From Escherichia phage Gostya9, in sequence record NC_047979.1: a stretch of DNA of 64,000 nucleotides. One strand, 5' to 3'. A model generated the notes under the pieces. It searched no databases. It was not told the DNA's origin and saw nothing but the letters and a program-made list of their open reading frames with translations. Positions 1 through 35,851 of this stretch are shown piece after piece (position 1 is the first letter of the stretch; the number at the start of each line of letters is the position of its first letter). A program made the position numbers and the translations under genes.

Positions 1-408
1 AATACAGTAACGTCTATTATTTTCCAGTTTAAGTCAAGGTGACTTAGTGGTTATGCCCTGCGGTATACTGGGGACTCGGTTAGGTTAGGGTCATGACTTC
101 CTACCTTTTTGCTGCTACTCAACAGGAGTTATCGCGAATTACCTGTGCTATTGTGCACCATTAGTGGCATCTCTCATGCCAGCATTTCCCACTTTGTGGA
201 TAGTTTGAAAAACTACTCCGATATGGAGGGAGAACTTCACTATCCTAGAATACCTTCTAAAGTTCTTCTTTAGCCTGGACATAGTTAAATCGTAATAAAA
301 CTATTCAGCAGACTGGTTGGTTAGCCTGGAACCAACTACCGCGTGGTTTAGGCAGTGCGCAACTAACCTCGGAAGCTTTTACGTTAAAAGCACCAGTTAT
401 CCAGTTCT

Positions 409-480
409 TACCGATCGTAGGATTCGAACCTACATCTTCCACCAGTTACGGCTTGATAATACCGTTTATACTAGATCGGC
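409..480 (-). tRNA. tRNA-like element (possibly degenerate tRNA or pseudo-tRNA); anticodon not assignable
   Basis: Minus-strand sequence GCCGATC...GTAGG-TTCGAAT-CCTAC-GATCGGT-A gives a canonical T-arm (5-bp stem, TTCGAAT loop) and a 7-bp acceptor stem with G1-U71 and discriminator A. The 40 nt between them do not fold into standard D and anticodon arms by hand (only an ACGG/CCGT 4-bp stem with a 10-nt loop). It lies directly downstream of an early-type promoter at 557-585. Confidence 0.4.
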
Positions 481-556
481 AGTGTTACTACATAAGTGAT
501 TTCCACACCCCACTATTTATAACTTAGAGAAGAATTACTCTCTAATTTATGAATAT

Positions 557-27352: not shown

Positions 27353-27382
27353 GGGGTGGGGGCTATGCCTCTACCCCTTTTT
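27353..27382 (+). terminator. rho-independent terminator
   Basis: GC-rich hairpin GGGGTGGGGGC / GCCTCTACCCC (with G-U pairs) followed by TTTTT. Confidence 0.55.
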
Positions 27383-27415
27383 GCATTTAGAAGGCACGAA
27401 AGCGTGCAAAGGAGA

Positions 27416-28888
27416 ATGACCTTGTTTAACGTGCAAGCTGTAGTGTTGAAGATGCTTCTAGCTTCCGAACAGAAGCAAATAGCATTGGAAACATTCTCAA
27501 AACTGCATAAAGATCATTTTAATGACGCTTTCTCCTCAATTTACCAAGCCGTCCAGAATTATTATAAAAAATATAACACAATGCCGTCCATTGACGCACT
27601 GATGCTTGAGGCTAATAGGAACGCCCGCCTTTCTCAAGCTCTAGTCGTTTTAGCTAACACTCAAATTCCAGAAGTTAGCATGGAACAGGCACTTGAAGTC
27701 CTAGAGGCCGAGTATACACAGGATTTATTCCTGAAGCTTCTAGAAACAGACGTGCTTCAAGATTTAACAATGCTGGATCAGGGAGAAATTCTTAACCGAG
27801 TTGCCTCCCTTCACTTAAAATTAGAAGAGAAAGTAACGAATACTGGAAAAGTATTCAACGCAGATAACATGCGTATTTTCCAGAGAGAAGAAGATACCAA
27901 ACTGAACTTAATCGCTCTTGGTATTTGTAATGAGTTCGACGCTCAAATTGGTTTAGCTCGCACAGAAACGTTACTGCTTGGTGGTTGGCGTGGTACTGGT
28001 AAATCCATTATCTGTTCAAACATACAGGTTCAGCAATATTTGAATGGAGATATTGCTCCATACTTCTCAATTGAGATGAAAGAACATGAAGTATTTAGAC
28101 GTAATCTAGCTATGTTAGCTGGTGTATCAGCACTAGCAATGCGTAATAATACTCTAGAAGGTGCAGCTCTGTTGAGATTAGCCAGAACTAGAGCTAGGAT
28201 GTTTAACGGTGGTGAAGAGCTTTTCGATAACTTCGTTAAACAGTACACAATGGCTAAGATGAGTGATTTCTACGATATGGAAAGTAAGCTAATAGAAGGA
28301 TATGAGCTACATACTCCTATGATTATTGTTTATGATCCTGAGCTGTCTATTACAACAGTTGACGTAGAATTAAATAAATTAGTTGCTAGATATGGGGATA
28401 AAGTTACAGTAGCTTTACTAGACTATATTAACCAAACCCGACTTCCAGACTCTAAAACCATTGATATGTATGACTGGAAAGAACAGATGGTTGTTAGCTC
28501 GTCTTTCAAATCTATCTGCCAGAAACATAACGTGGCTGGTGTAGCTCCTTACCAGATCGATCAAGATGGTAGAACACGTATGTCGAAGGGGATTCTTGAT
28601 TCCGCAGACATGGCTGCTAATCTTAATGCTGCAAAAGCTGATAATGGTCAAGGTGCTATTATGTTTGACTTCGTTAAGACTCGGTCTTCTGATAGCGTGA
28701 AGTTTATGCCTAAAATGAACTGGGAAACCCTGCGGATGGATAACACTACCAACCTAGCAATGGAAGATATATCTCAAATGGAAGCTGAGTTCGTTATCCC
28801 TATTGAGAAGGATAAGCCGACTCAATCTAAACGTGCTAAGAAAGACAAAGCTGAAAATTCAACAGGTGAACAGGCCAGCGATATATGA
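27416..28888 (+). CDS. DnaB-like replicative DNA helicase
   Basis: About 490 aa with RecA-like P-loop (LLGGWRGTGKSIIC). ATG at 27416 with AAAGGAGA RBS, downstream of the terminator; the track ORF begins upstream inside the hairpin. Confidence 0.6.
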   Translation: MTLFNVQAVVLKMLLASEQKQIALETFSKLHKDHFNDAFSSIYQAVQNYYKKYNTMPSIDALMLEANRNARLSQALVVLANTQIPEVSMEQALEVLEAEYTQDLFLKLLETDVLQDLTMLDQGEILNRVASLHLKLEEKVTNTGKVFNADNMRIFQREEDTKLNLIALGICNEFDAQIGLARTETLLLGGWRGTGKSIICSNIQVQQYLNGDIAPYFSIEMKEHEVFRRNLAMLAGVSALAMRNNTLEGAALLRLARTRARMFNGGEELFDNFVKQYTMAKMSDFYDMESKLIEGYELHTPMIIVYDPELSITTVDVELNKLVARYGDKVTVALLDYINQTRLPDSKTIDMYDWKEQMVVSSSFKSICQKHNVAGVAPYQIDQDGRTRMSKGILDSADMAANLNAAKADNGQGAIMFDFVKTRSSDSVKFMPKMNWETLRMDNTTNLAMEDISQMEAEFVIPIEKDKPTQSKRAKKDKAENSTGEQASDI

Positions 28889-29418
28889 TAACACAGGAAA
28901 GGCTAAAAGAGTTATTTGATTACTCCCCAGTTTCTGGGGAGTTTACTAGAAAAGTATCTAGAGGTAATCAGAAAGCTGGTAGTATAATAACCAGAAAAGA
29001 CTCTAACGGTTATATAATTATTGGTATAGATGGCAAGGATTACAAAGCCCATCGGATGGCTTTTCTATTTATGGAAAATACATTGCCGGAAAAAGTAGAC
29101 CATGTAAACAGAATACCTTTTGATAATAGGTGGTGTAATCTAAGAGACGCCACAGCTCAGGAAAATAGTAGAAATAAAACCGCATGTAGTAAGTCTGGAT
29201 ATTTGGGAGTTGCTTGGGATATCGAAAAACAAAGATGGAGAGTTCAAGTAAGAGACTCTAATAGCACTCTTAAAAATGGTGGCAGATTTAAGTATGAAGA
29301 GCTAGAGCTAGCTGTAAATTCAGCAAATATATTAAGGACTAAGTTACATGGAGAACGTGCTGTTATAGAAATTTTTGATACATCTAATTATCCTTCACTG
29401 GAGGAGTTAAATTCATGA
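28885..29418 (+). CDS. HNH homing endonuclease
   Basis: HVNRIPFDNRWCNLRDATAQENSRN matches the HNH catalytic motif (H...N...N). 177 aa, inserted between helicase and primase with overlapping start/stop codons. Confidence 0.7.
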   Translation: MITQERLKELFDYSPVSGEFTRKVSRGNQKAGSIITRKDSNGYIIIGIDGKDYKAHRMAFLFMENTLPEKVDHVNRIPFDNRWCNLRDATAQENSRNKTACSKSGYLGVAWDIEKQRWRVQVRDSNSTLKNGGRFKYEELELAVNSANILRTKLHGERAVIEIFDTSNYPSLEELNS

Positions 29419-30305
29419 GTCGAATAACAGAATTACTTGATCTTAAGGGAATTGAGTATAAAGATACTGGTGGAGATATTTTAATCTGTTGTCTAAATCC
29501 AGATCATGATGATAAACACCCAAGTTTGCGTATTGACCCTGAAACAGGTATTATGCACTGCTTGAGTTGTGGCTTCGGTAAAGGTATACCGAGCATTTAC
29601 CATTATTTTAATGAGACTCAGTACCGACAGTCCCCAAGACTATCCCAAGTACGTAAAAAGATTTCAGAGATTAGAAATGGATCTACAAATCTTGCAATCC
29701 CAGAATCTGCTTTTCTTTTTGAAGGTGATTTCCGAGGTATCAGTTCTAAGACCTTAAAGAAATATTTTGCTTTCCAACACCAAGAGGACTGGGAGGGCAG
29801 AATTGTATTCCCAATCACAGATGCTGTTGGACGCAATATCCTATTTTTGGGTCGTTCTATAAACAGTTCTGCCCCTCCTAAATACTTAGTAAAACCAAAA
29901 CAAGTTTCACCACCAATTTTCCCTGTACGATATAATACTCCAGTTCTTATTCTAGTTGAAGGCATCTTTGATATGCTGAAGCTAGAGGATAATGGTATAG
30001 ACTATGCTTCCTGCTGTTTTGGTACACATCAGTTTACTTCCGATAACATTGCAGATAAGTTCAGTCCTTATATTATTGCCGGTGTAAAAGTTGTTGTTAT
30101 CTTACTAGATAATGATGCTTCTGGTAATAAAGCTGCCCAGTCTCTAGCGAAGTTAATTCGTACAAAAACGCGTTTAACACCTGTAGTTGCTAACTTTCTT
30201 CTGCCTGAAGGTAAAGACCCTGGTGACTTAAATAAAGAAGAAGTCGATACGTTAGCAAAACGTATTGAAATTTTAGTTGCTGAATCGCTTAAAGATTTGG
30301 TATAA
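29415..30305 (+). CDS. DNA primase (DnaG-type: CHC2 zinc finger + TOPRIM)
   Basis: CLNPDHDDKHPSLRIDPETGIMHCLSCGFGKG (CHC2 Zn-binding) and VLILVEGIFDMLKLEDNG (TOPRIM acidic motif); GGAGG RBS. Confidence 0.75.
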   Translation: MSRITELLDLKGIEYKDTGGDILICCLNPDHDDKHPSLRIDPETGIMHCLSCGFGKGIPSIYHYFNETQYRQSPRLSQVRKKISEIRNGSTNLAIPESAFLFEGDFRGISSKTLKKYFAFQHQEDWEGRIVFPITDAVGRNILFLGRSINSSAPPKYLVKPKQVSPPIFPVRYNTPVLILVEGIFDMLKLEDNGIDYASCCFGTHQFTSDNIADKFSPYIIAGVKVVVILLDNDASGNKAAQSLAKLIRTKTRLTPVVANFLLPEGKDPGDLNKEEVDTLAKRIEILVAESLKDLV

Positions 30306-30367
30306 TATATTGGTAAGTTAGAGAAGAAACACTGAAGTTATACTTACTTACCAAGAGGAGATTAAAT

Positions 30368-33300
30368 TTGAAAATTGCAGTAGTTGATAAAGCTCTAAAC
30401 AACACTCGTTATGATAAACATTTCCAGCTATACGGCGAGGAAGTTGATGTATTCCATATGTGTAACGAGAAGTTATCCGGTCGTTTGCTCAAAAAGCATA
30501 TTACTATCGGGACCCCGGAAAACCCATTTGACCCGAATGATTATGATTTTGTTATACTGGTAGGTGCCGAACCTTTCCTGTACTTTGCGGGTAAGAAAGG
30601 TATTGGTGATTATACTGGTAAACGTGTAGAGTATAATGGATATGCTAACTGGATTGCTAGTATCAGCCCAGCCCAGTTACACTTTAAACCTGAAATGAAA
30701 CCAGTTTTTGATGCAACAGTAGAGAGTATCCACGATATTATCAATGGTCGTGAGAAGATTGCAAAAGCTGGTGATTACCGTCCTATTACTGACCCTGATG
30801 AGGCAGAAGAATATATCAAGATGGTGTATAATATGGTTATCGGACCTGTCGCATTCGACTCCGAAACCTCAGCACTATACTGTCGAGATGGTTATCTGCT
30901 TGGTGTTTCTATTTCTCACCAAGAGTATCAGGGTGTATATATCGATTCTGATTGTCTCACAGAGGTTGCAGTATATTATCTCCAGAAAATTCTGGATAGT
31001 GAAAACCACATTATTGTTTTTCACAACTTGAAGTTTGATATGCACTTTTATAAGTACCATCTGGGACTTACTTTTGATAAAGCACATAAAGAACGCAGGC
31101 TCCATGATACCATGTTGCAGCACTATGTTCTAGATGAACGTCGTGGTACTCATGGCTTGAAATCTCTAGCAATGAAGTATACCGATATGGGTGACTATGA
31201 CTTCGAACTAGATAAGTTCAAAGATGATTACTGCAAAGCACATAAAATCAAGAAAGAAGATTTCACCTATGATCTGATTCCGTTTGATATTATGTGGCCA
31301 TATGCATGTCTTACTCACGATTCCCAAGTTCGGATGGCTTCAGGGAATTGGAAGACTATTGGGGAACTTGTTCGCACCAAATCTACAGAAGCTGTAGTAT
31401 CATTCAACGAGTCAACTGGGCAATTTGAGAACAAACCGATTACTGGATGGTATAAAAATGAACATAAATCCAAGCAATGGAAGAAGTTAATAGTTAAATC
31501 TCAGCAAAGAAACTCTAAGGGTACTATTAATGGGCCAGTATTTACACCAGATCATAGGGTATTAACTCAGAATGGATACATAGAAGTCCAAGATATTATT
31601 CCAGGACAGGATAAAATCCTAACTGAAGAACTTGCTTTACCATCTGATAGTAAGCAAGTATTAATGGCATCCCTATTTGGGGATGGTGCTCTGGTATCTA
31701 GAAATAATTGGGGCGCGGGTCTACAACTGACACAGTCAGAAGCGCATAAAGAGTATCTAGATTTTAAGGCAGCCTCTCAAGTAGAAACACCAACTCTTAG
31801 TTCCTCTACAAAAGGAGATAAAAAAGCATATACGTATAGTTTCCCCTATACCTCGGAGTATTCTGACTTATTCTCTACCTTAGAGGTACGAGATAATACT
31901 ACAAAATATAAGTTAAAAATTACTAAGAAAAATCTAGAAGGGTTAGATGAAAAAGCACTAGCTATTTGGTATCAAGATGATGGTAACCTGCCACAAGGAA
32001 ACGCACGCATTTGGTCTAGAACAGTTGCTGATTGTAAAGAAGAGCAGCAAAATTTCATAGAATGGTGTAAAAATCTAGGCATTACAGCACGCTACCATAA
32101 CGATGGAGAAAATAACCAGTTCTTTGTATTAGATAATGAAGAACTATTCCCTTTGATTGCTCCATATATGCATAGCTCTATGGCTTACAAGGTGCCAGAA
32201 AGATTCAAGCACTTAGTAGGAACAGGAACTTGGGATTTTTCAACATCTAAGTACTACTATGCAGAAGTGTATGGGGTTGAGGATTGGGTAGTTCCAGCCT
32301 CTAGAAGAGGTTACTCTACCAGTTGGTGTATAGATGTAAAAGATAACCATAACTTTGTAACTAAAGTTGGTGTAGTTCACAACTGTAAAGATACAGATGC
32401 TACCATACGTTTGCACAACTTCTTCTTACCAAAAATTGAGAAGAATGAAAAACTTTGCAGTCTATATTACGATGTTCTAATGCCTGGTTGTGTATTCCTA
32501 CAGCGTGTCGAAGATCGTGGTGTACCTATCTCTATTGATCGTTTGAAAGAAGCTCAGTATCAATTGACTCATAATTTGAATAAAGCCCGTGAGAAACTGT
32601 ATACTTATCCAGAAGTTAAACAGCTAGAACAAGATCAGAATGAAGCATTTAACCCGAACTCTGTTAAGCAGCTGCGTGTTCTTCTGTTCGATTATGTTGG
32701 TTTGACTCCAACTGGTAAGTTAACGGATACTGGTGCAGATTCTACGGATGCAGAAGCTCTGAATGAACTGGCTACGCAGCATCCAATTGCTAAAACTCTA
32801 CTAGAGATTCGTAAGCTGACTAAGCTGATCTCTACTTATGTTGAGAAGATTCTTCTGAGTATTGATGCAGATGGTTGCATTCGTACTGGTTTCCATGAAC
32901 ATATGACTACTTCTGGTCGTCTGAGTTCTTCTGGTAAACTGAACCTGCAACAGCTACCTCGTGATGAATCTATCATTAAGGGTTGTGTAGTTGCACCACC
33001 TGGATACCGTGTAATCGCATGGGACTTAACAACTGCGGAAGTTTATTATGCTGCTGTTCTATCTGGTGATAGAAATATGCAACAAGTATTTATCAACATG
33101 AGAAATGAACCCGATAAATACCCTGACTTCCACTCTAACATCGCCCACATGGTATTTAAATTGCAATGTGAACCTCGTGATGTTAAAAAGTTATTCCCAG
33201 CTCTGCGTCAAGCAGCTAAGGCAATTACCTTTGGTATTTTGTACGGTTCTGGCCCGGCTAAAGTAGCACATTCTGTTAACGAAGCATTGCTAGAACAAGC

Positions 33301-34012
33301 AGCCAAAACTGGGGAACCATTTGTTGAATGTACTGTTGCAGATGCTAAAGAGTACATTGAGACTTACTTTGGTCAATTCCCACAGCTTAAGCGTTGGATT
33401 GATAAGTGCCACGATCAAATCAAGAATCATGGGTTTATCTATAGTCACTTTGGTCGTAAACGTCGTCTACATAATATCCACTCTGAAGACCGTGGCGTTC
33501 AGGGTGAAGAAATTCGTTCTGGGTTTAACGCAATCATTCAGTCTGCTTCTTCTGATAGTCTCCTTTTAGGTGCTGTAGATGCAGATAATGAGATCATTTC
33601 TCTTGGCCTAGAACAAGAGATGAAGATTGTTATGCTGGTTCATGACTCCGTAGTTGCTATTGTTCGTGAAGACTTGATTGATCAATACAATGAAATTCTG
33701 ATTCGTAATATTCAGAAAGACCGTGGTATCAGTATTCCTGGCTGTCCGATTGGTATTGATTCAGATTCTGAAGCTGGAGGTTCTCGTGACTATTCTTGTG
33801 GTAAGATGAAGAAACAGCACCCATCAATCGCTTGTATTGATGATGACGAATATACTCGTTACGTTAAAGAAATGCTTCTTGATTCTGAATTCGAGTATAA
33901 GAAATTAGCTGCAATGGATAAAGAGCATCCAGATCATAGCAAATACAAGGATGATAAGTTTATTGCTGTATGTAAGGATCTGGATAACGTGAAAAGGGTT
34001 CTCGGTGCTTAA
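30368..34012 (+). CDS. DNA polymerase (family A, T5 D7-9-like) interrupted by an in-frame intein
   Basis: 1214-aa ORF starting at TTG 30368 with AAGAGGAG RBS. Removing the 359-aa insert leaves 855 aa, the T5 polymerase size as I recall it. C-terminal region carries Pol I palm-like motifs (KAITFGILYGSG; HDSVV). Confidence 0.85.
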   Translation: MKIAVVDKALNNTRYDKHFQLYGEEVDVFHMCNEKLSGRLLKKHITIGTPENPFDPNDYDFVILVGAEPFLYFAGKKGIGDYTGKRVEYNGYANWIASISPAQLHFKPEMKPVFDATVESIHDIINGREKIAKAGDYRPITDPDEAEEYIKMVYNMVIGPVAFDSETSALYCRDGYLLGVSISHQEYQGVYIDSDCLTEVAVYYLQKILDSENHIIVFHNLKFDMHFYKYHLGLTFDKAHKERRLHDTMLQHYVLDERRGTHGLKSLAMKYTDMGDYDFELDKFKDDYCKAHKIKKEDFTYDLIPFDIMWPYACLTHDSQVRMASGNWKTIGELVRTKSTEAVVSFNESTGQFENKPITGWYKNEHKSKQWKKLIVKSQQRNSKGTINGPVFTPDHRVLTQNGYIEVQDIIPGQDKILTEELALPSDSKQVLMASLFGDGALVSRNNWGAGLQLTQSEAHKEYLDFKAASQVETPTLSSSTKGDKKAYTYSFPYTSEYSDLFSTLEVRDNTTKYKLKITKKNLEGLDEKALAIWYQDDGNLPQGNARIWSRTVADCKEEQQNFIEWCKNLGITARYHNDGENNQFFVLDNEELFPLIAPYMHSSMAYKVPERFKHLVGTGTWDFSTSKYYYAEVYGVEDWVVPASRRGYSTSWCIDVKDNHNFVTKVGVVHNCKDTDATIRLHNFFLPKIEKNEKLCSLYYDVLMPGCVFLQRVEDRGVPISIDRLKEAQYQLTHNLNKAREKLYTYPEVKQLEQDQNEAFNPNSVKQLRVLLFDYVGLTPTGKLTDTGADSTDAEALNELATQHPIAKTLLEIRKLTKLISTYVEKILLSIDADGCIRTGFHEHMTTSGRLSSSGKLNLQQLPRDESIIKGCVVAPPGYRVIAWDLTTAEVYYAAVLSGDRNMQQVFINMRNEPDKYPDFHSNIAHMVFKLQCEPRDVKKLFPALRQAAKAITFGILYGSGPAKVAHSVNEALLEQAAKTGEPFVECTVADAKEYIETYFGQFPQLKRWIDKCHDQIKNHGFIYSHFGRKRRLHNIHSEDRGVQGEEIRSGFNAIIQSASSDSLLLGAVDADNEIISLGLEQEMKIVMLVHDSVVAIVREDLIDQYNEILIRNIQKDRGISIPGCPIGIDSDSEAGGSRDYSCGKMKKQHPSIACIDDDEYTRYVKEMLLDSEFEYKKLAAMDKEHPDHSKYKDDKFIAVCKDLDNVKRVLGA
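31307..32383 (+). mobile_element. intein with LAGLIDADG homing-endonuclease domain inside the DNA polymerase
   Basis: Begins with Cys (CLTHDSQVRMASGNW, block A), TPDH (block B TxxH), two LAGLIDADG-like motifs (LMASLFGDGAL and IWYQDDGNL), ends VVHN followed by extein +1 Cys (CKDTD). Confidence 0.75.
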
Positions 34013-34502
34013 TTTCAAATTGCCCGTCTATGCGTTACGGGCGTTTGTATCAATTGAGCAAGAAGGTGATTATTCCGTAATTACAACAAGATATAATAAA
34101 TATGTGCTAGATAACAGGAAGTTGCCTGGCACGTTTTCTCAACGTAGGCTTATTCTATTTGAGAAACGGAAAGAATTACCATATAAGCTCTATCCTATTA
34201 GAGGTAGAATATCAATGTTGTCTCAATTAGTTGGGTCAAAGCGTAACCAATTTATAGATTCTGATGGAAATCTTATTAATTGGAAGAAAACAACGTTCTA
34301 CGATGTTGTCACCTCTAAAGTTTTGCATTCAGCTAGAATTTACAATGGAAAATACCAATGCTACGTGGCTAAAGTCCCTTATCCATTTGTATTATCCTAT
34401 GTTCCAGCTTATATAAGCTATATTCTGGTAAATAATAGCCCTGTTATTTATCAAGTCCATCAAGAGGAGCCTGAAATTCCTAGACTTAGAATAAAATTAT
34501 GA
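34005..34502 (+). CDS. hypothetical protein (up to 165 aa; start uncertain)
   Basis: ORF overlapping the polymerase stop and the D10 start; first in-frame ATG is internal (about 34215); a GTG/TTG start is possible. Confidence 0.4.
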   Translation: MLNFKLPVYALRAFVSIEQEGDYSVITTRYNKYVLDNRKLPGTFSQRRLILFEKRKELPYKLYPIRGRISMLSQLVGSKRNQFIDSDGNLINWKKTTFYDVVTSKVLHSARIYNGKYQCYVAKVPYPFVLSYVPAYISYILVNNSPVIYQVHQEEPEIPRLRIKL

Positions 34503-35851
34503 AGGTTGTTATATCTAATAAAGCCTATTTCAAGCCCGATGATGAACTTTGGGATTATTGTAGTAAGCAAACCACTTACCACATAGAGACAATGACTAGT
34601 AAATACCCTATTATGTATAAGAATAGTGGTGTTGTTGCCAAAGAGATTAAGTGGATTCCTATTACGCGTCTGGATTTACTAGATGCTAAAGGAATAAAAT
34701 ACGAATTAGTTGATAAACGCACGTTAGCTCCGGTAGATATACCAAAACCGTCGTTTAAACTGCGTGAAGAAGATCAGCTTCCAATATACGAAGAGTGCGA
34801 TGATACCTGCATTATTAATGGTAAGCCTGGATTTGGTAAAACTATCCTAGCACTTGCACTTGCGTATAAATTTGGCCAGAAAACTTTGGTAATCTGTACG
34901 AATACATCCATTCGTGAAATGTGGGCGGCGGAAGTTCGTAAATGGTTTGGGTTTGAACCGGGCATCATAGGTTCTGGGAAATACAATATCGATCCACCAA
35001 TTGTAGTCAGTAATATTCAAACAGTGAATAAGCATGCGAATAATCTTTCTAAAGTATTCGGTACTGTTATAGTTGATGAAGTTCACCATTGTGTAGCTAC
35101 AACTTTCACTAACTTCCTAGAAATATCATGTGCTCGCTATAAAATTGGACTATCCGGCACACTAAAACGTAAGGATGGCTTGCAAGTTATGTTCAAAGAT
35201 TTCTTTGGATATAAAATCTTTAGTCCTCCAGTTAATAATACTGTTGCTCCTACAATCCACAGGTACTCCGTACCAGTTGAATTGTCTGGAAACCAAAACG
35301 TACCGTGGGCATTACGTGCTAACGATGTGTATAACCATCCTGAATATCGAGGGGCTATTATAAACCTAGCACATTTATATGTGAATATGGGGCATAAAGT
35401 ACTCATTGTAAGTGATAGAACAGAGTTAATCCAAACAGTACTAGAAGCTCTTACGCAGCGGGGTGTCACAACCTATGAAATTATAGGGGCAACCCACTTA
35501 GATGACCGATTAAAAATTCAGGAAGATATAGCAAAAGGTGGGCCTTGTGTACTTGCAGCAGCTCAAAGTATCTTCTCTGAAGGTATTTCCCTTAATGAGC
35601 TATCTTGTTTAATAATGGGAAGCCTCATTAATAATGAATCTCTCATTGAACAGCTTGCAGGCCGTGTTCAACGTATTGTCGATGGTAAACTCGACCCTAT
35701 TGTTGTAGATCTAATTATGAAAGGTGGCACTGGACTAAGACAGGCTTCTGGACGTATGGCAGTATACCGTAACAATGGGTGGAAAACTATTACTATGACT
35801 CCTGAGAAAGCAGTTCAATTAGCCAAAATTGCATTTGGCAACAGCTCATAA
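34499..35851 (+). CDS. D10: SF2 DNA helicase (T5 D10-like)
   Basis: Walker A GKPGFGKT and DExH box VIVDEVHH; 450 aa. Confidence 0.75.
   Translation: MKVVISNKAYFKPDDELWDYCSKQTTYHIETMTSKYPIMYKNSGVVAKEIKWIPITRLDLLDAKGIKYELVDKRTLAPVDIPKPSFKLREEDQLPIYEECDDTCIINGKPGFGKTILALALAYKFGQKTLVICTNTSIREMWAAEVRKWFGFEPGIIGSGKYNIDPPIVVSNIQTVNKHANNLSKVFGTVIVDEVHHCVATTFTNFLEISCARYKIGLSGTLKRKDGLQVMFKDFFGYKIFSPPVNNTVAPTIHRYSVPVELSGNQNVPWALRANDVYNHPEYRGAIINLAHLYVNMGHKVLIVSDRTELIQTVLEALTQRGVTTYEIIGATHLDDRLKIQEDIAKGGPCVLAAAQSIFSEGISLNELSCLIMGSLINNESLIEQLAGRVQRIVDGKLDPIVVDLIMKGGTGLRQASGRMAVYRNNGWKTITMTPEKAVQLAKIAFGNSS

What the first reader, a model, noticed from the sequence alone, without database searches (positions are those of the whole stretch)
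31307..32383. Full-size intein with LAGLIDADG endonuclease splits the replicative DNA polymerase
The polymerase ORF is 1214 aa, but a 359-aa in-frame insert shows intein landmarks in order: Cys1 (CLTHDSQVRM), TxxH block (TPDH), two LAGLIDADG motifs (LFGDGAL, WYQDDGNL), terminal VVHN and a +1 Cys. Removing it leaves 855 aa. The polymerase would then depend on protein splicing, and the intein is a mobile element that can home into intein-less relatives.
Basis: partly seen in the sequence, partly recalled or inferred. Interest (0 to 1): 0.75.

Follow-up and report, generated by a model that had tools for sequence, protein, structure and literature searches.

The report
Homing intein in T5-like DNA polymerase
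The DNA polymerase gene of this T5-like phage is interrupted by a genuine self-splicing, mobile protein insert (an intein carrying its own DNA-cutting enzyme), but the same element at the same site is already annotated in a sequenced relative, so it is real but ordinary.

Summary
The observation and the interpretation both hold. Window 31307-32383 (+) is a 359-aa in-frame insert in the 1214-aa family A DNA polymerase ORF (30368-34012) of a T5-like phage. Intein-free T5 and DT57C align base-for-base across the gap. The insert has every class 1 intein landmark and a confident HINT plus LAGLIDADG model.

Three refinements:
- It sits inside the Exo III motif of the proofreading domain (YA|CKD; Klenow YAAED).
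- The +1 Cys replaces an Ala found in intein-free alleles.

The intein occurs in only 6 of 447 T5-like phage records. Synonymous divergence between the window and phage smaug is 0.085 in the intein and 0.70-0.83 in the exteins, which indicates recent horizontal spread. More distant T5-type polymerases in metagenomes carry a 43-51% identical intein at the same site.

GenBank MZ501103 (phage SelmaRatti) already annotates this allele as an intein at exactly these boundaries. No experiment or dedicated paper was found. Verdict: correct, already known, low interest. Splicing and homing are inferred, not shown.

The parts
30353..30360 (+). Shine-Dalgarno sequence AAGAGGAG, 7 nt upstream of the TTG start of the polymerase precursor
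   Evidence: Read directly from the sequence. The N-terminal MKIAV(V/I)DK is conserved in distant homologs P0002 and P0003, which start at the same position.
30368..34012 (+). Intein-containing DNA polymerase precursor ORF (1214 aa plus stop), T5 D7-9/pol ortholog
   Evidence: ORF. (Pfam DNA_pol_A_exo1 at residues 137-313, DNA_pol_A at 732-1119). (95-98% nt identity to T5-like polymerase genes).
30368..31306 (+). N-extein (313 aa): N-terminal region plus most of the 3'-5' exonuclease domain, ending ...MWPYA with the Exo III tyrosine
   Evidence: junction. (alignment to Klenow RYAAEDAD).
31307..32383 (+). Intein (359 aa), Cys1 to Asn359
31307..31636 (+). N-terminal lobe of the HINT splicing domain (approx. 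residues 1-110). Block A Cys1 at 31307-31309; block B T80-P-D-H83 at 31544-31555.
   Evidence: NCBIfam intein_Nterm above cutoff. Profile hits to Mtu RecA, DnaB, DnaE and DnaX mini-inteins over positions 1-117. Foldseek TM 0.60 to Mtu RecA. C1, T80 and H83 are 99-100% conserved in 100 homologs.
31637..32221 (+). I-SceI-type LAGLIDADG homing endonuclease domain (approx. residues 111-305). Motif 1 LMASLFGDG at 31661-31687 (D126); motif 2 LAIWYQDDG at 31958-31984 (D225); conserved MAYKVP at 32180-32197 (K295).
   Evidence: Pfam PF03161, 39 bits vs GA 25. Profile vs PDB: I-SceI E=1.3e-23 over its whole length. Foldseek: I-SceI and I-WcaI TM 0.66, rmsd 3.5 A. G125/D126 and D224/D225 align to the I-SceI metal ligands G43/D44 and D144/D145 (PMC2425494).
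32222..32383 (+). C-terminal lobe of the HINT domain (approx. residues 306-359). Block F WCIDVKDNHNFV at 32324-32359; block G VGVVHN at 32366-32383.
   Evidence: N349, F350 and N359 conserved at 95-100%; alignment to C-terminal blocks of mini-inteins; beta strands modelled at high confidence.
32384..32386 (+). +1 Cys codon (TGT), first residue of the C-extein. It replaces Ala (GCA/GCG) of intein-free alleles.
   Evidence: The +1 residue is Cys in 92 and Ser in 7 of 99 family members.
32384..34012 (+). C-extein (542 aa plus stop): the rest of Exo III (CKDTD), then the polymerase domain

Best explanation
This is a canonical class 1 intein with an embedded I-SceI-type LAGLIDADG homing endonuclease. 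It is inserted between Ala313 and the residue equivalent to Klenow Ala499, inside the Exo III motif (Y-A|A-K-D) of the proofreading domain of a T5-like phage's replicative family A DNA polymerase.

Inferred mechanism: the 1214-aa precursor is translated. Cys1 makes the N-S acyl shift, helped by block B Thr80/His83. The +1 Cys attacks the thioester. Asn359, helped by the penultimate His358, cyclises and releases the intein. An S-N shift then yields an 855-aa polymerase with YACKD in place of the ancestral YAAKD.

The free intein (or the precursor) uses its two LAGLIDADG motifs (Asp126, Asp225) to cut the uninterrupted Exo III site in the polymerase gene of a co-infecting intein-free T5-like phage. 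Recombinational repair then copies in the intein and the Cys codon (homing).

Shown here: exact in-frame insertion, all catalytic residues, fold, family membership, sporadic distribution, and intein/extein divergence discordance. Inferred: splicing, cleavage and homing.
For: Exact 1077-nt insertion relative to T5 and DT57C with no other indel. All five other carriers keep the ORF open.

Landmark residues are present and 93-100% conserved across 100 homologs: Cys1, T80xxH83, G125-D126, D224-D225-G226, K295, N349-F350, Asn359, +1 Cys.

Profile hits: intein_Nterm above cutoff, LAGLIDADG_2 above GA, I-SceI 1e-23, and mini-inteins 1e-10 to 1e-5 in PDB.

The AlphaFold model has pLDDT 91.6 and pTM 0.88. 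Its best full-length matches are the endonuclease-bearing inteins TliVMA, PI-PfuI and PI-SceI. Its domains superpose on I-SceI (TM 0.66) and Mtu RecA intein (TM 0.60).

The insertion lies in Exo III.

Mobility: present in 6 of 447 T5-like records. Window vs smaug, dS is 0.085 in the intein against 0.83 and 0.70 in the exteins. The window's exteins are closest (98%) to intein-free DT57C. Intein dN/dS is 0.12-0.40, and 0.08-0.32 in the endonuclease part, so it is under purifying selection.

Carriers SelmaRatti, smaug and Kenya-K36/K42/K44 are deposited as phages with named hosts. The polymerase must therefore be functional in them, which implies splicing.

Independent GenBank annotation as an intein with the same boundaries.
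Against: No experiment: neither splicing nor endonuclease activity has been shown for this allele in anything I could find.

Two curated intein profiles are below threshold: PF14890 at 23.9 vs 35.8 bits, and TIGR01443 at 12.8 vs 15.6 bits.

Intein dN/dS is about ten times higher than in the exteins, so some relaxation of constraint is possible.

Co-conversion tracts expected from homing are not clearly resolvable, because the flanks are highly conserved in all phages.
Confidence: 0.93

Rival explanations
1. The intein still splices, but its endonuclease is dead or dying. The element is now only inherited vertically or moved passively by ordinary phage recombination, at the late stage of the homing cycle.
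For: Intein dN/dS of 0.12-0.40 is much higher than in the exteins at 0.01-0.04. Prevalence is only about 1-3%. T5-like genomes are highly mosaic, so general recombination could move a 1-kb segment. No activity data exist.
Against: Both catalytic Asp residues, the conserved Lys295 and all family-invariant positions are intact. dN/dS within the endonuclease part is 0.08-0.32, well below 1. The intein is 97% identical between Tequintavirus and Epseptimavirus hosts whose exteins have dS 0.7-0.8, and the discordance ends within about 100 nt of the intein boundaries. That is what site-specific homing predicts, rather than random recombination.
Confidence: 0.2
2. The insert is a lineage-specific accessory domain of the polymerase that is not removed. 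In other words it is not an intein.
For: PF14890 and TIGR01443 fall below their curated cutoffs. No splicing experiment exists.
Against: It splits the catalytic Tyr from the catalytic Asp of Exo III. About 99% of close relatives lack it with no compensating change other than Ala to Cys. It has every splicing residue and a HINT fold. Homologs of the insert sit in unrelated host proteins: PhoH, a cytidylyltransferase, RNA ligase, UvsX.
Confidence: 0.01
3. The intein has been co-opted as a conditional switch, for example redox-sensitive through Cys1, Cys+1 and Cys341. Until splicing occurs the phage would have a polymerase without proofreading, or no polymerase.
For: Cys1, the +1 Cys and a 90%-conserved Cys341 in block F are present. 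The insertion lies in the exonuclease domain while the polymerase domain is left contiguous in the C-extein.
Against: There is no evidence of any kind here. The rarity of the intein among otherwise near-identical phages argues that it gives no needed function. The Cys residues are the ordinary nucleophiles of class 1 inteins.
Confidence: 0.04

Closest known systems
Intein of Escherichia phage SelmaRatti (Bas34) DNA polymerase, GenBank MZ501103, locus bas34_0034, annotated 'intein-containing DNA polymerase precursor' with mat_peptide 'intein'
   Same: Same host gene, same insertion point, same length (1077 nt). 96.1% nt and 95.3% aa identity. The annotated boundaries map exactly to window 31307-32383. 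The unannotated copies in Salmonella phages smaug and Kenya-K36/K42/K44 are equally close.
   Different: 17 amino-acid differences, none at a catalytic position. The window's exteins are nearer to intein-free DT57C (98%) than to SelmaRatti (97% for the N-extein, 92% for the C-extein). The window also carries the hegJ-type HNH gene, which SelmaRatti lacks. The SelmaRatti annotation is computational only (PMC8594841).
Endonuclease-bearing inteins PI-SceI (yeast VMA1), PI-PfuI and TliVMA
   Same: Same architecture: a HINT splicing domain split by a two-motif LAGLIDADG endonuclease. These are the best full-length structural matches (E 3e-12 to 3e-9). Same class 1 residues: Cys1, TxxH, HN, +1 Cys.
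   Different: Only 10-15% identity. The relative domain placement differs (TM 0.3 overall). The protein is smaller (359 aa vs 430-540). The endonuclease belongs to another LAGLIDADG subfamily (PF03161, not PF14528).
I-SceI and I-WcaI (mitochondrial group I intron-encoded monomeric LAGLIDADG endonucleases, PF03161)
   Same: The endonuclease domain is homologous over the whole length of I-SceI (profile E=1.3e-23; TM 0.66, rmsd 3.5 A). The metal-binding G43/D44 and D144/D145 and the C-terminal YKLP motif are conserved (PMC2425494).
   Different: I-SceI is free-standing and intron-encoded in a yeast mitochondrial rRNA gene. Here the domain is nested in an intein in a phage protein-coding gene. About 18% identity. 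The target sequence must be different and is unknown.
Metagenomic PolA Exo III inteins (P0002, P0003, P0004, IMG/VR contig IMGVR_UViG_3300043464_001836, and UDG-PolA fusion polymerases such as P0007 and P0010)
   Same: Homologous intein (30-51% identity) at the same Y(A/G/S)|C-x-D position of family A polymerase exonuclease domains. 43 of the 99 full-length top hits are in this context.
   Different: Host polymerases are 25-56% identical to this one. Many of these inteins end Ser-Asn rather than His-Asn. None of them is named or studied.

Membership tests
Intein (class 1, HINT superfamily) | In-frame insertion that is precisely absent from orthologs, at a conserved site of the host protein | tested here: met
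   1077-nt gap and no other indel against T5 and DT57C. The site is the Exo III motif.
Intein (class 1, HINT superfamily) | N-terminal nucleophile (Cys/Ser) and block B TxxH | tested here: met
   Cys1 and T80-P-D-H83. These are 99-100% conserved in 100 homologs.
Intein (class 1, HINT superfamily) | C-terminal His-Asn followed by a Cys/Ser/Thr at +1 | tested here: met
   VVHN|C. Asn is 100% conserved, and +1 is Cys in 92 and Ser in 7 of 99 family members.
Intein (class 1, HINT superfamily) | Scores above curated profile thresholds | tested here: inconclusive
   TIGR01445 intein_Nterm 29.3 vs 24.5 bits: met. PF14890 23.9 vs 35.8 bits and TIGR01443 12.8 vs 15.6 bits: not met. A family profile does reach solved mini-inteins at E 9e-10 to 1e-4.
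Intein (class 1, HINT superfamily) | HINT fold formed by the N- and C-terminal segments | tested here: met
   Model pLDDT 91.6. Foldseek hits to Mtu RecA, DnaB and DnaX inteins at TM 0.53-0.60, and to PI-SceI, PI-PfuI and TliVMA at E down to 3e-12.
Intein (class 1, HINT superfamily) | Autocatalytic protein splicing | not testable with these tools
   Inferred only: the carriers are deposited as phages with named hosts, although the insert splits an active-site motif of an essential enzyme.
LAGLIDADG homing endonuclease, I-SceI subfamily (Pfam PF03161) | Two LAGLIDADG motifs, each ending in a catalytic acidic residue | tested here: met
   LMASLFGD126G and LAIWYQDD225G. They align to I-SceI D44 and D145 (PMC2425494).
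LAGLIDADG homing endonuclease, I-SceI subfamily (Pfam PF03161) | Profile score above the gathering threshold, and homology to I-SceI | tested here: met
   PF03161 39 bits vs GA 25. I-SceI E=1.3e-23 covering residues 11-232 of 237. TM 0.66.
LAGLIDADG homing endonuclease, I-SceI subfamily (Pfam PF03161) | Site-specific cleavage of the empty allele and homing | not testable with these tools
   Indirect support only: 6 of 447 records carry it, and intein dS is 0.085 against extein dS 0.70-0.83.
   No PF14528 hit at E<=1 for the insert or the whole ORF.
T5-type family A replicative DNA polymerase (host protein) | 3'-5' exonuclease plus PolA domains, orthologous to T5 D7-9 | tested here: met
   PF01612 and PF00476. 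94-98% nt identity of the exteins to T5 and DT57C pol. Klenow E=1.6e-50.

The most novel reading that the evidence does not exclude
The intein is an actively homing element that is invading T5-like phages now. Its I-SceI-clade endonuclease would cut the intact Exo III site of the essential polymerase gene in co-infecting intein-free phages, so it would act both as a selfish gene drive and as a weapon in phage-phage competition. It would also be an uncharacterised meganuclease specificity in a genetically tractable lytic phage system.
Probability: 0.45. Interest if true: 0.4.

Novelty: already known. Interest (0 to 1): 0.22.

Why it matters
For annotation, the gene should be labelled as an intein-containing polymerase precursor. 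Four of the six public records carrying it call it plain 'DNA polymerase', and one has no annotation. Length-based or alignment-based comparisons of T5-like polymerases will otherwise be misled.

Biologically it is a textbook example of an intein in an active-site motif of a replication enzyme. The only modest added value is threefold. T5-like phages offer about 99% empty target sites and easy crosses, so this allele could serve as a model for intein invasion dynamics in lytic phages. Its endonuclease is an I-SceI relative of unknown specificity. The same Exo III site is occupied by related inteins in many uncultured phage polymerases.

Tried and rejected
1. Single-sequence AlphaFold model of the intein: pLDDT 35, unusable. 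Replaced by a model built with a 16-sequence alignment.

2. The word-indexed protein search found only one distant relative, a PhoH intein at 29% identity. The exhaustive HMMER search was needed to see the family.

3. phmmer of the single sequence against PDB gave only a marginal DnaX mini-intein hit at E=0.27. The profile search resolved it.

5. Search for intein-free alleles carrying a Cys 'footprint' (YACKD) that would mark precise intein loss: 0 contigs in IMG/VR, against 34 with the Ala allele. Not searched in GenBank phages.

6. Co-conversion tracts. Identity to smaug rises to 94-96% in the last ~100 nt before the intein and is 92-93% for ~100 nt after it. All phages are conserved there, so the tract length cannot be fixed. 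I make no claim beyond 'short, about 100 nt or less'.

7. IMG/VR contig L041, which matches the N-junction pattern, was tested as the possible source of the window. It is not. It is a divergent T5-like phage with 43% aa identity.

8. Literature searches for a description of a T5-like polymerase intein. These found only a generic methods sentence in the BASEL paper, and a general statement that bacterial DNA polymerase I can host inteins (PMC4760082).

9. Scan of the whole window for a second intein of this family or a paralog of the HNH gene: none.
Full report
**1. Observation**

The window encodes a 1214-aa ORF at 30368..34012 on the + strand, starting at TTG. A strong Shine-Dalgarno sequence, AAGAGGAG, lies 7 nt upstream. 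Distant homologs begin at the same conserved MKIAV(V/I)DK.

Pfam places a 3'-5' exonuclease domain at residues 137-313 and a family A polymerase domain at 732-1119. The exonuclease match stops at profile position 154 of 173, exactly where the insert begins.

The reverse strand is closed, and no alternative ORF of 60 aa or more overlaps the insert.

**2. Genome and boundaries**

The window is a T5-like phage (Demerecviridae, Tequintavirus). The polymerase gene matches 447 phage records, and a 24-kb stretch around it is at best about 94-95.5% identical to any record. The window is therefore a distinct, mosaic member of the group.

Only six records cover the whole gene. In the next 34 listed, and presumably in the other 407 (none of which matches the insert itself), the match splits into two pieces covering 70% of the query. 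The insert alone finds just those six: SelmaRatti, smaug (two accessions) and Kenya-K36, K42 and K44.

Aligned to intein-free T5 and DT57C, the gene shows a single clean 1077-nt gap:

- Intein-free: ...TGG CCA TAT GCT | GCA AAA GAT..., reading WPYA-AKD.
- Window...TGG CCA TAT GCA [TGT CTT ... CAC AAC] TGT AAA GAT..., reading WPYA[C...HN]CKD.

The residue after the intein is therefore Cys, where intein-free alleles have Ala. The spliced product is 855 aa, the same length as the DT57C protein, but with an Ala-to-Cys substitution.

Alignment of the spliced protein to the Klenow fragment puts WPYA|CKDTDAT opposite RYAAEDADVT, the Exo III motif. From established knowledge, Klenow Tyr497 and Asp501 of this motif are proofreading active-site residues. 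The intein thus separates the equivalents of those two residues.

**3. What the insert is**

*Sequence profiles.*

| Profile | Score | Threshold |
|---|---|---|
| NCBIfam intein_Nterm (TIGR01445) | 29.3 bits | 24.5 |
| Pfam LAGLIDADG_2 (PF03161) | 39 bits | 25 |
| Pfam Intein_splicing (PF14890), spanning residues 10-359 | 23.9 bits | 35.8 |
| NCBIfam intein_Cterm (TIGR01443) | 12.8 bits | 15.6 |

The first two are above their cutoffs and the last two are below.

*Family size.* An exhaustive HMMER search found 2034 relatives, 830 of them at E<1e-10. Nearly all match the full 359 residues as an internal segment of a larger protein.

*Conservation.* In 99 full-length family members:

- The first residue is always Cys and the last always Asn.
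- The +1 residue is Cys (92) or Ser (7).
- The positions conserved in at least 80% of sequences are exactly the expected blocks: C1, L2, T80, H83, G125-D126, D224-D225-G226, K295, N349-F350, N359.

The window's copy has all of them.

*Comparison with solved structures by sequence.* A profile of 16 members hits I-SceI at E=1.3e-23 over essentially its whole length, and I-WcaI at 2.6e-22. Its terminal segments hit the Spl DnaX, Mtu RecA, DnaE, DnaB and NrdJ-1 mini-inteins at 9e-10 to 1e-4. The alignment puts G125/D126 and D224/D225 on the I-SceI metal ligands G43/D44 and D144/D145 (ligands listed in PMC2425494).

*Predicted structure.* The alignment-based AlphaFold model is confident, with pLDDT 91.6 and pTM 0.88. 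Its best full-length PDB matches are the endonuclease-bearing inteins TliVMA, PI-PfuI and PI-SceI. Its core superposes on I-SceI and I-WcaI (TM 0.66, rmsd 3.5 A) and its splicing lobes on the Mtu RecA intein (TM 0.60).

The insert is therefore a class 1 intein whose homing endonuclease is of the I-SceI/PF03161 type.

**4. Evidence on how it behaves**

Splicing and homing cannot be tested here. Three lines of indirect evidence bear on them.

(a) *Viability.* The carriers are deposited as phages with named hosts, yet the insert splits an active-site motif of their replicative polymerase. All carriers keep the 1214-codon frame open. Splicing is the obvious inference.

(b) *Distribution.* The intein is in 6 of 447 GenBank T5-like records. 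In IMG/VR, 34 contigs have the empty Ala allele, none has an empty Cys allele, and one divergent contig has an occupied site.

(c) *Discordant divergence*.

| Window vs smaug (Epseptimavirus) | Nucleotide identity | dS |
|---|---|---|
| N-extein | 87.5% | 0.83 |
| C-extein | 87.6% | 0.70 |
| Intein | 97.0% | 0.085 |

The window's exteins are closest (98%) to DT57C, which has no intein. The switch from high to low identity occurs within roughly 100 nt of each intein boundary. A more exact tract cannot be read, because those flanks are conserved in all phages.

Intein dN/dS is 0.12-0.40, and 0.08-0.32 in the endonuclease part, against 0.01-0.04 in the exteins. The intein is less constrained than the polymerase but clearly not neutral.

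Together these results fit recent, site-specific horizontal transfer of a still-functional element. That is the standard homing cycle.

**5. Deeper history**

More distant T5-type polymerases from metagenomes (P0002, P0003, P0004 and IMG/VR contig L041) carry a 43-51% identical intein at the same YA|C position. Their exteins are 46-56% identical to the window's. The association with this polymerase lineage is therefore old.

Beyond that, 43 of the 99 full-length top hits sit in a Y[AGSN]|intein|[CST]xD context. Six of the eight hits sampled are family A polymerase hosts, five of which also have an N-terminal UDG-like domain. Exo III of PolA is thus a heavily used intein site in uncultured phages.

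More remote relatives (about 25-30% identity) occupy PhoH, a cytidylyltransferase, mycobacteriophage RNA ligase and a jumbo-phage UvsX.

**6. Comparison with what is known, and novelty**

GenBank MZ501103 (Escherichia phage SelmaRatti, BASEL collection) annotates locus bas34_0034 as 'intein-containing DNA polymerase precursor', with a mat_peptide 'intein' whose coordinates map exactly to window 31307-32383. The BASEL paper says only that inteins were identified during comparative annotation (PMC8594841).

The other carriers label the gene 'DNA polymerase', or have no annotation.

I found no open-access paper describing or testing this intein. A general survey notes that bacterial DNA polymerase I can host inteins (PMC4760082).

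The element is a standard intein in every respect tested, and the same allele is already publicly annotated. I therefore rate it 'already known', with low interest. The small additions made here are:

- the Exo III placement;
- the Ala-to-Cys change at +1;
- the I-SceI-type endonuclease;
- the quantitative evidence for recent spread;
- the breadth of the PolA Exo III intein family.

**7. Rivals**

- *Splicing-competent intein with a dead endonuclease.* Possible but disfavoured by intact catalytic residues, dN/dS below 1 and the sharp discordance.
- *Non-excised accessory domain.* Effectively excluded.
- *Co-opted conditional switch.* Pure speculation with nothing in its favour beyond the presence of cysteines.

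**8. Surroundings**

The gene order is DnaB-like helicase (27356-28888), HNH endonuclease (28885-29418), primase (29415-30305), polymerase, a 165-aa ORF, then D10-type helicase (34499-35851). This is the T5 replication module.

The HNH gene is T5's hegJ/P-TflX type. It is present in 60 of 432 relatives and absent from the four other intein carriers fetched. It is a second, independent mobile element 1.9 kb upstream of the intein.

No further intein of this family, and no paralog of the HNH gene, occurs in the window.

Noticed in passing
window 28885-29418 (+): A free-standing HNH_3 homing-endonuclease gene (177 aa) is wedged between the DnaB-like helicase and the primase, overlapping both by 4 nt. 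It corresponds to T5 hegJ / 'putative H-N-H-endonuclease P-TflX'. It is present in about 60 of 432 T5-like records and absent from the four other intein-bearing phages fetched. The window therefore combines two independent mobile elements in its replication module.
   Followed up: partly
L005 (Salmonella phage Kenya-K44) 7132-9500, equivalent to window 34499-35851: In Kenya-K44 the D10-type helicase gene, intact in the window (450 aa), is annotated as two 'DNA helicase' fragments (339 nt and 1023 nt). They are separated by a 717-nt hypothetical ORF. This looks like another insertion (an intron or homing-endonuclease gene) in a replication gene.
   Followed up: no
window 20000-44000: No record in the phage collection is closer than about 94-95.5% over this 24-kb stretch. 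Identity to individual relatives swings between about 80% and 100% in 90-nt windows along the polymerase gene. The window is a distinct, strongly mosaic Tequintavirus.
   Followed up: partly
Intein family (proteins P0006-P0051 etc.): 35 of the 99 full-length relatives end in Ser-Asn, and 8 in Lys/Ala-Asn, instead of the canonical His-Asn. These are mostly the inteins in UDG-PolA fusion polymerases. The window's copy has the canonical His358.
   Followed up: no
L041 (IMGVR_UViG_3300043464_001836, 114-kb contig), minus strand around 594-616: A divergent T5-like phage genome from a metagenome (43% aa identity over N-extein plus intein) has an intein at the same YA|CLTHDS junction. This extends the allele beyond cultured Tequintavirus and Epseptimavirus.
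   Followed up: partly
window 408-481 (-): A single tRNA gene (tRNA-Ser, anticodon ACT as reported by ARAGORN) lies at the left edge of the window. It is presumably the end of the T5-type tRNA cluster.
   Followed up: no
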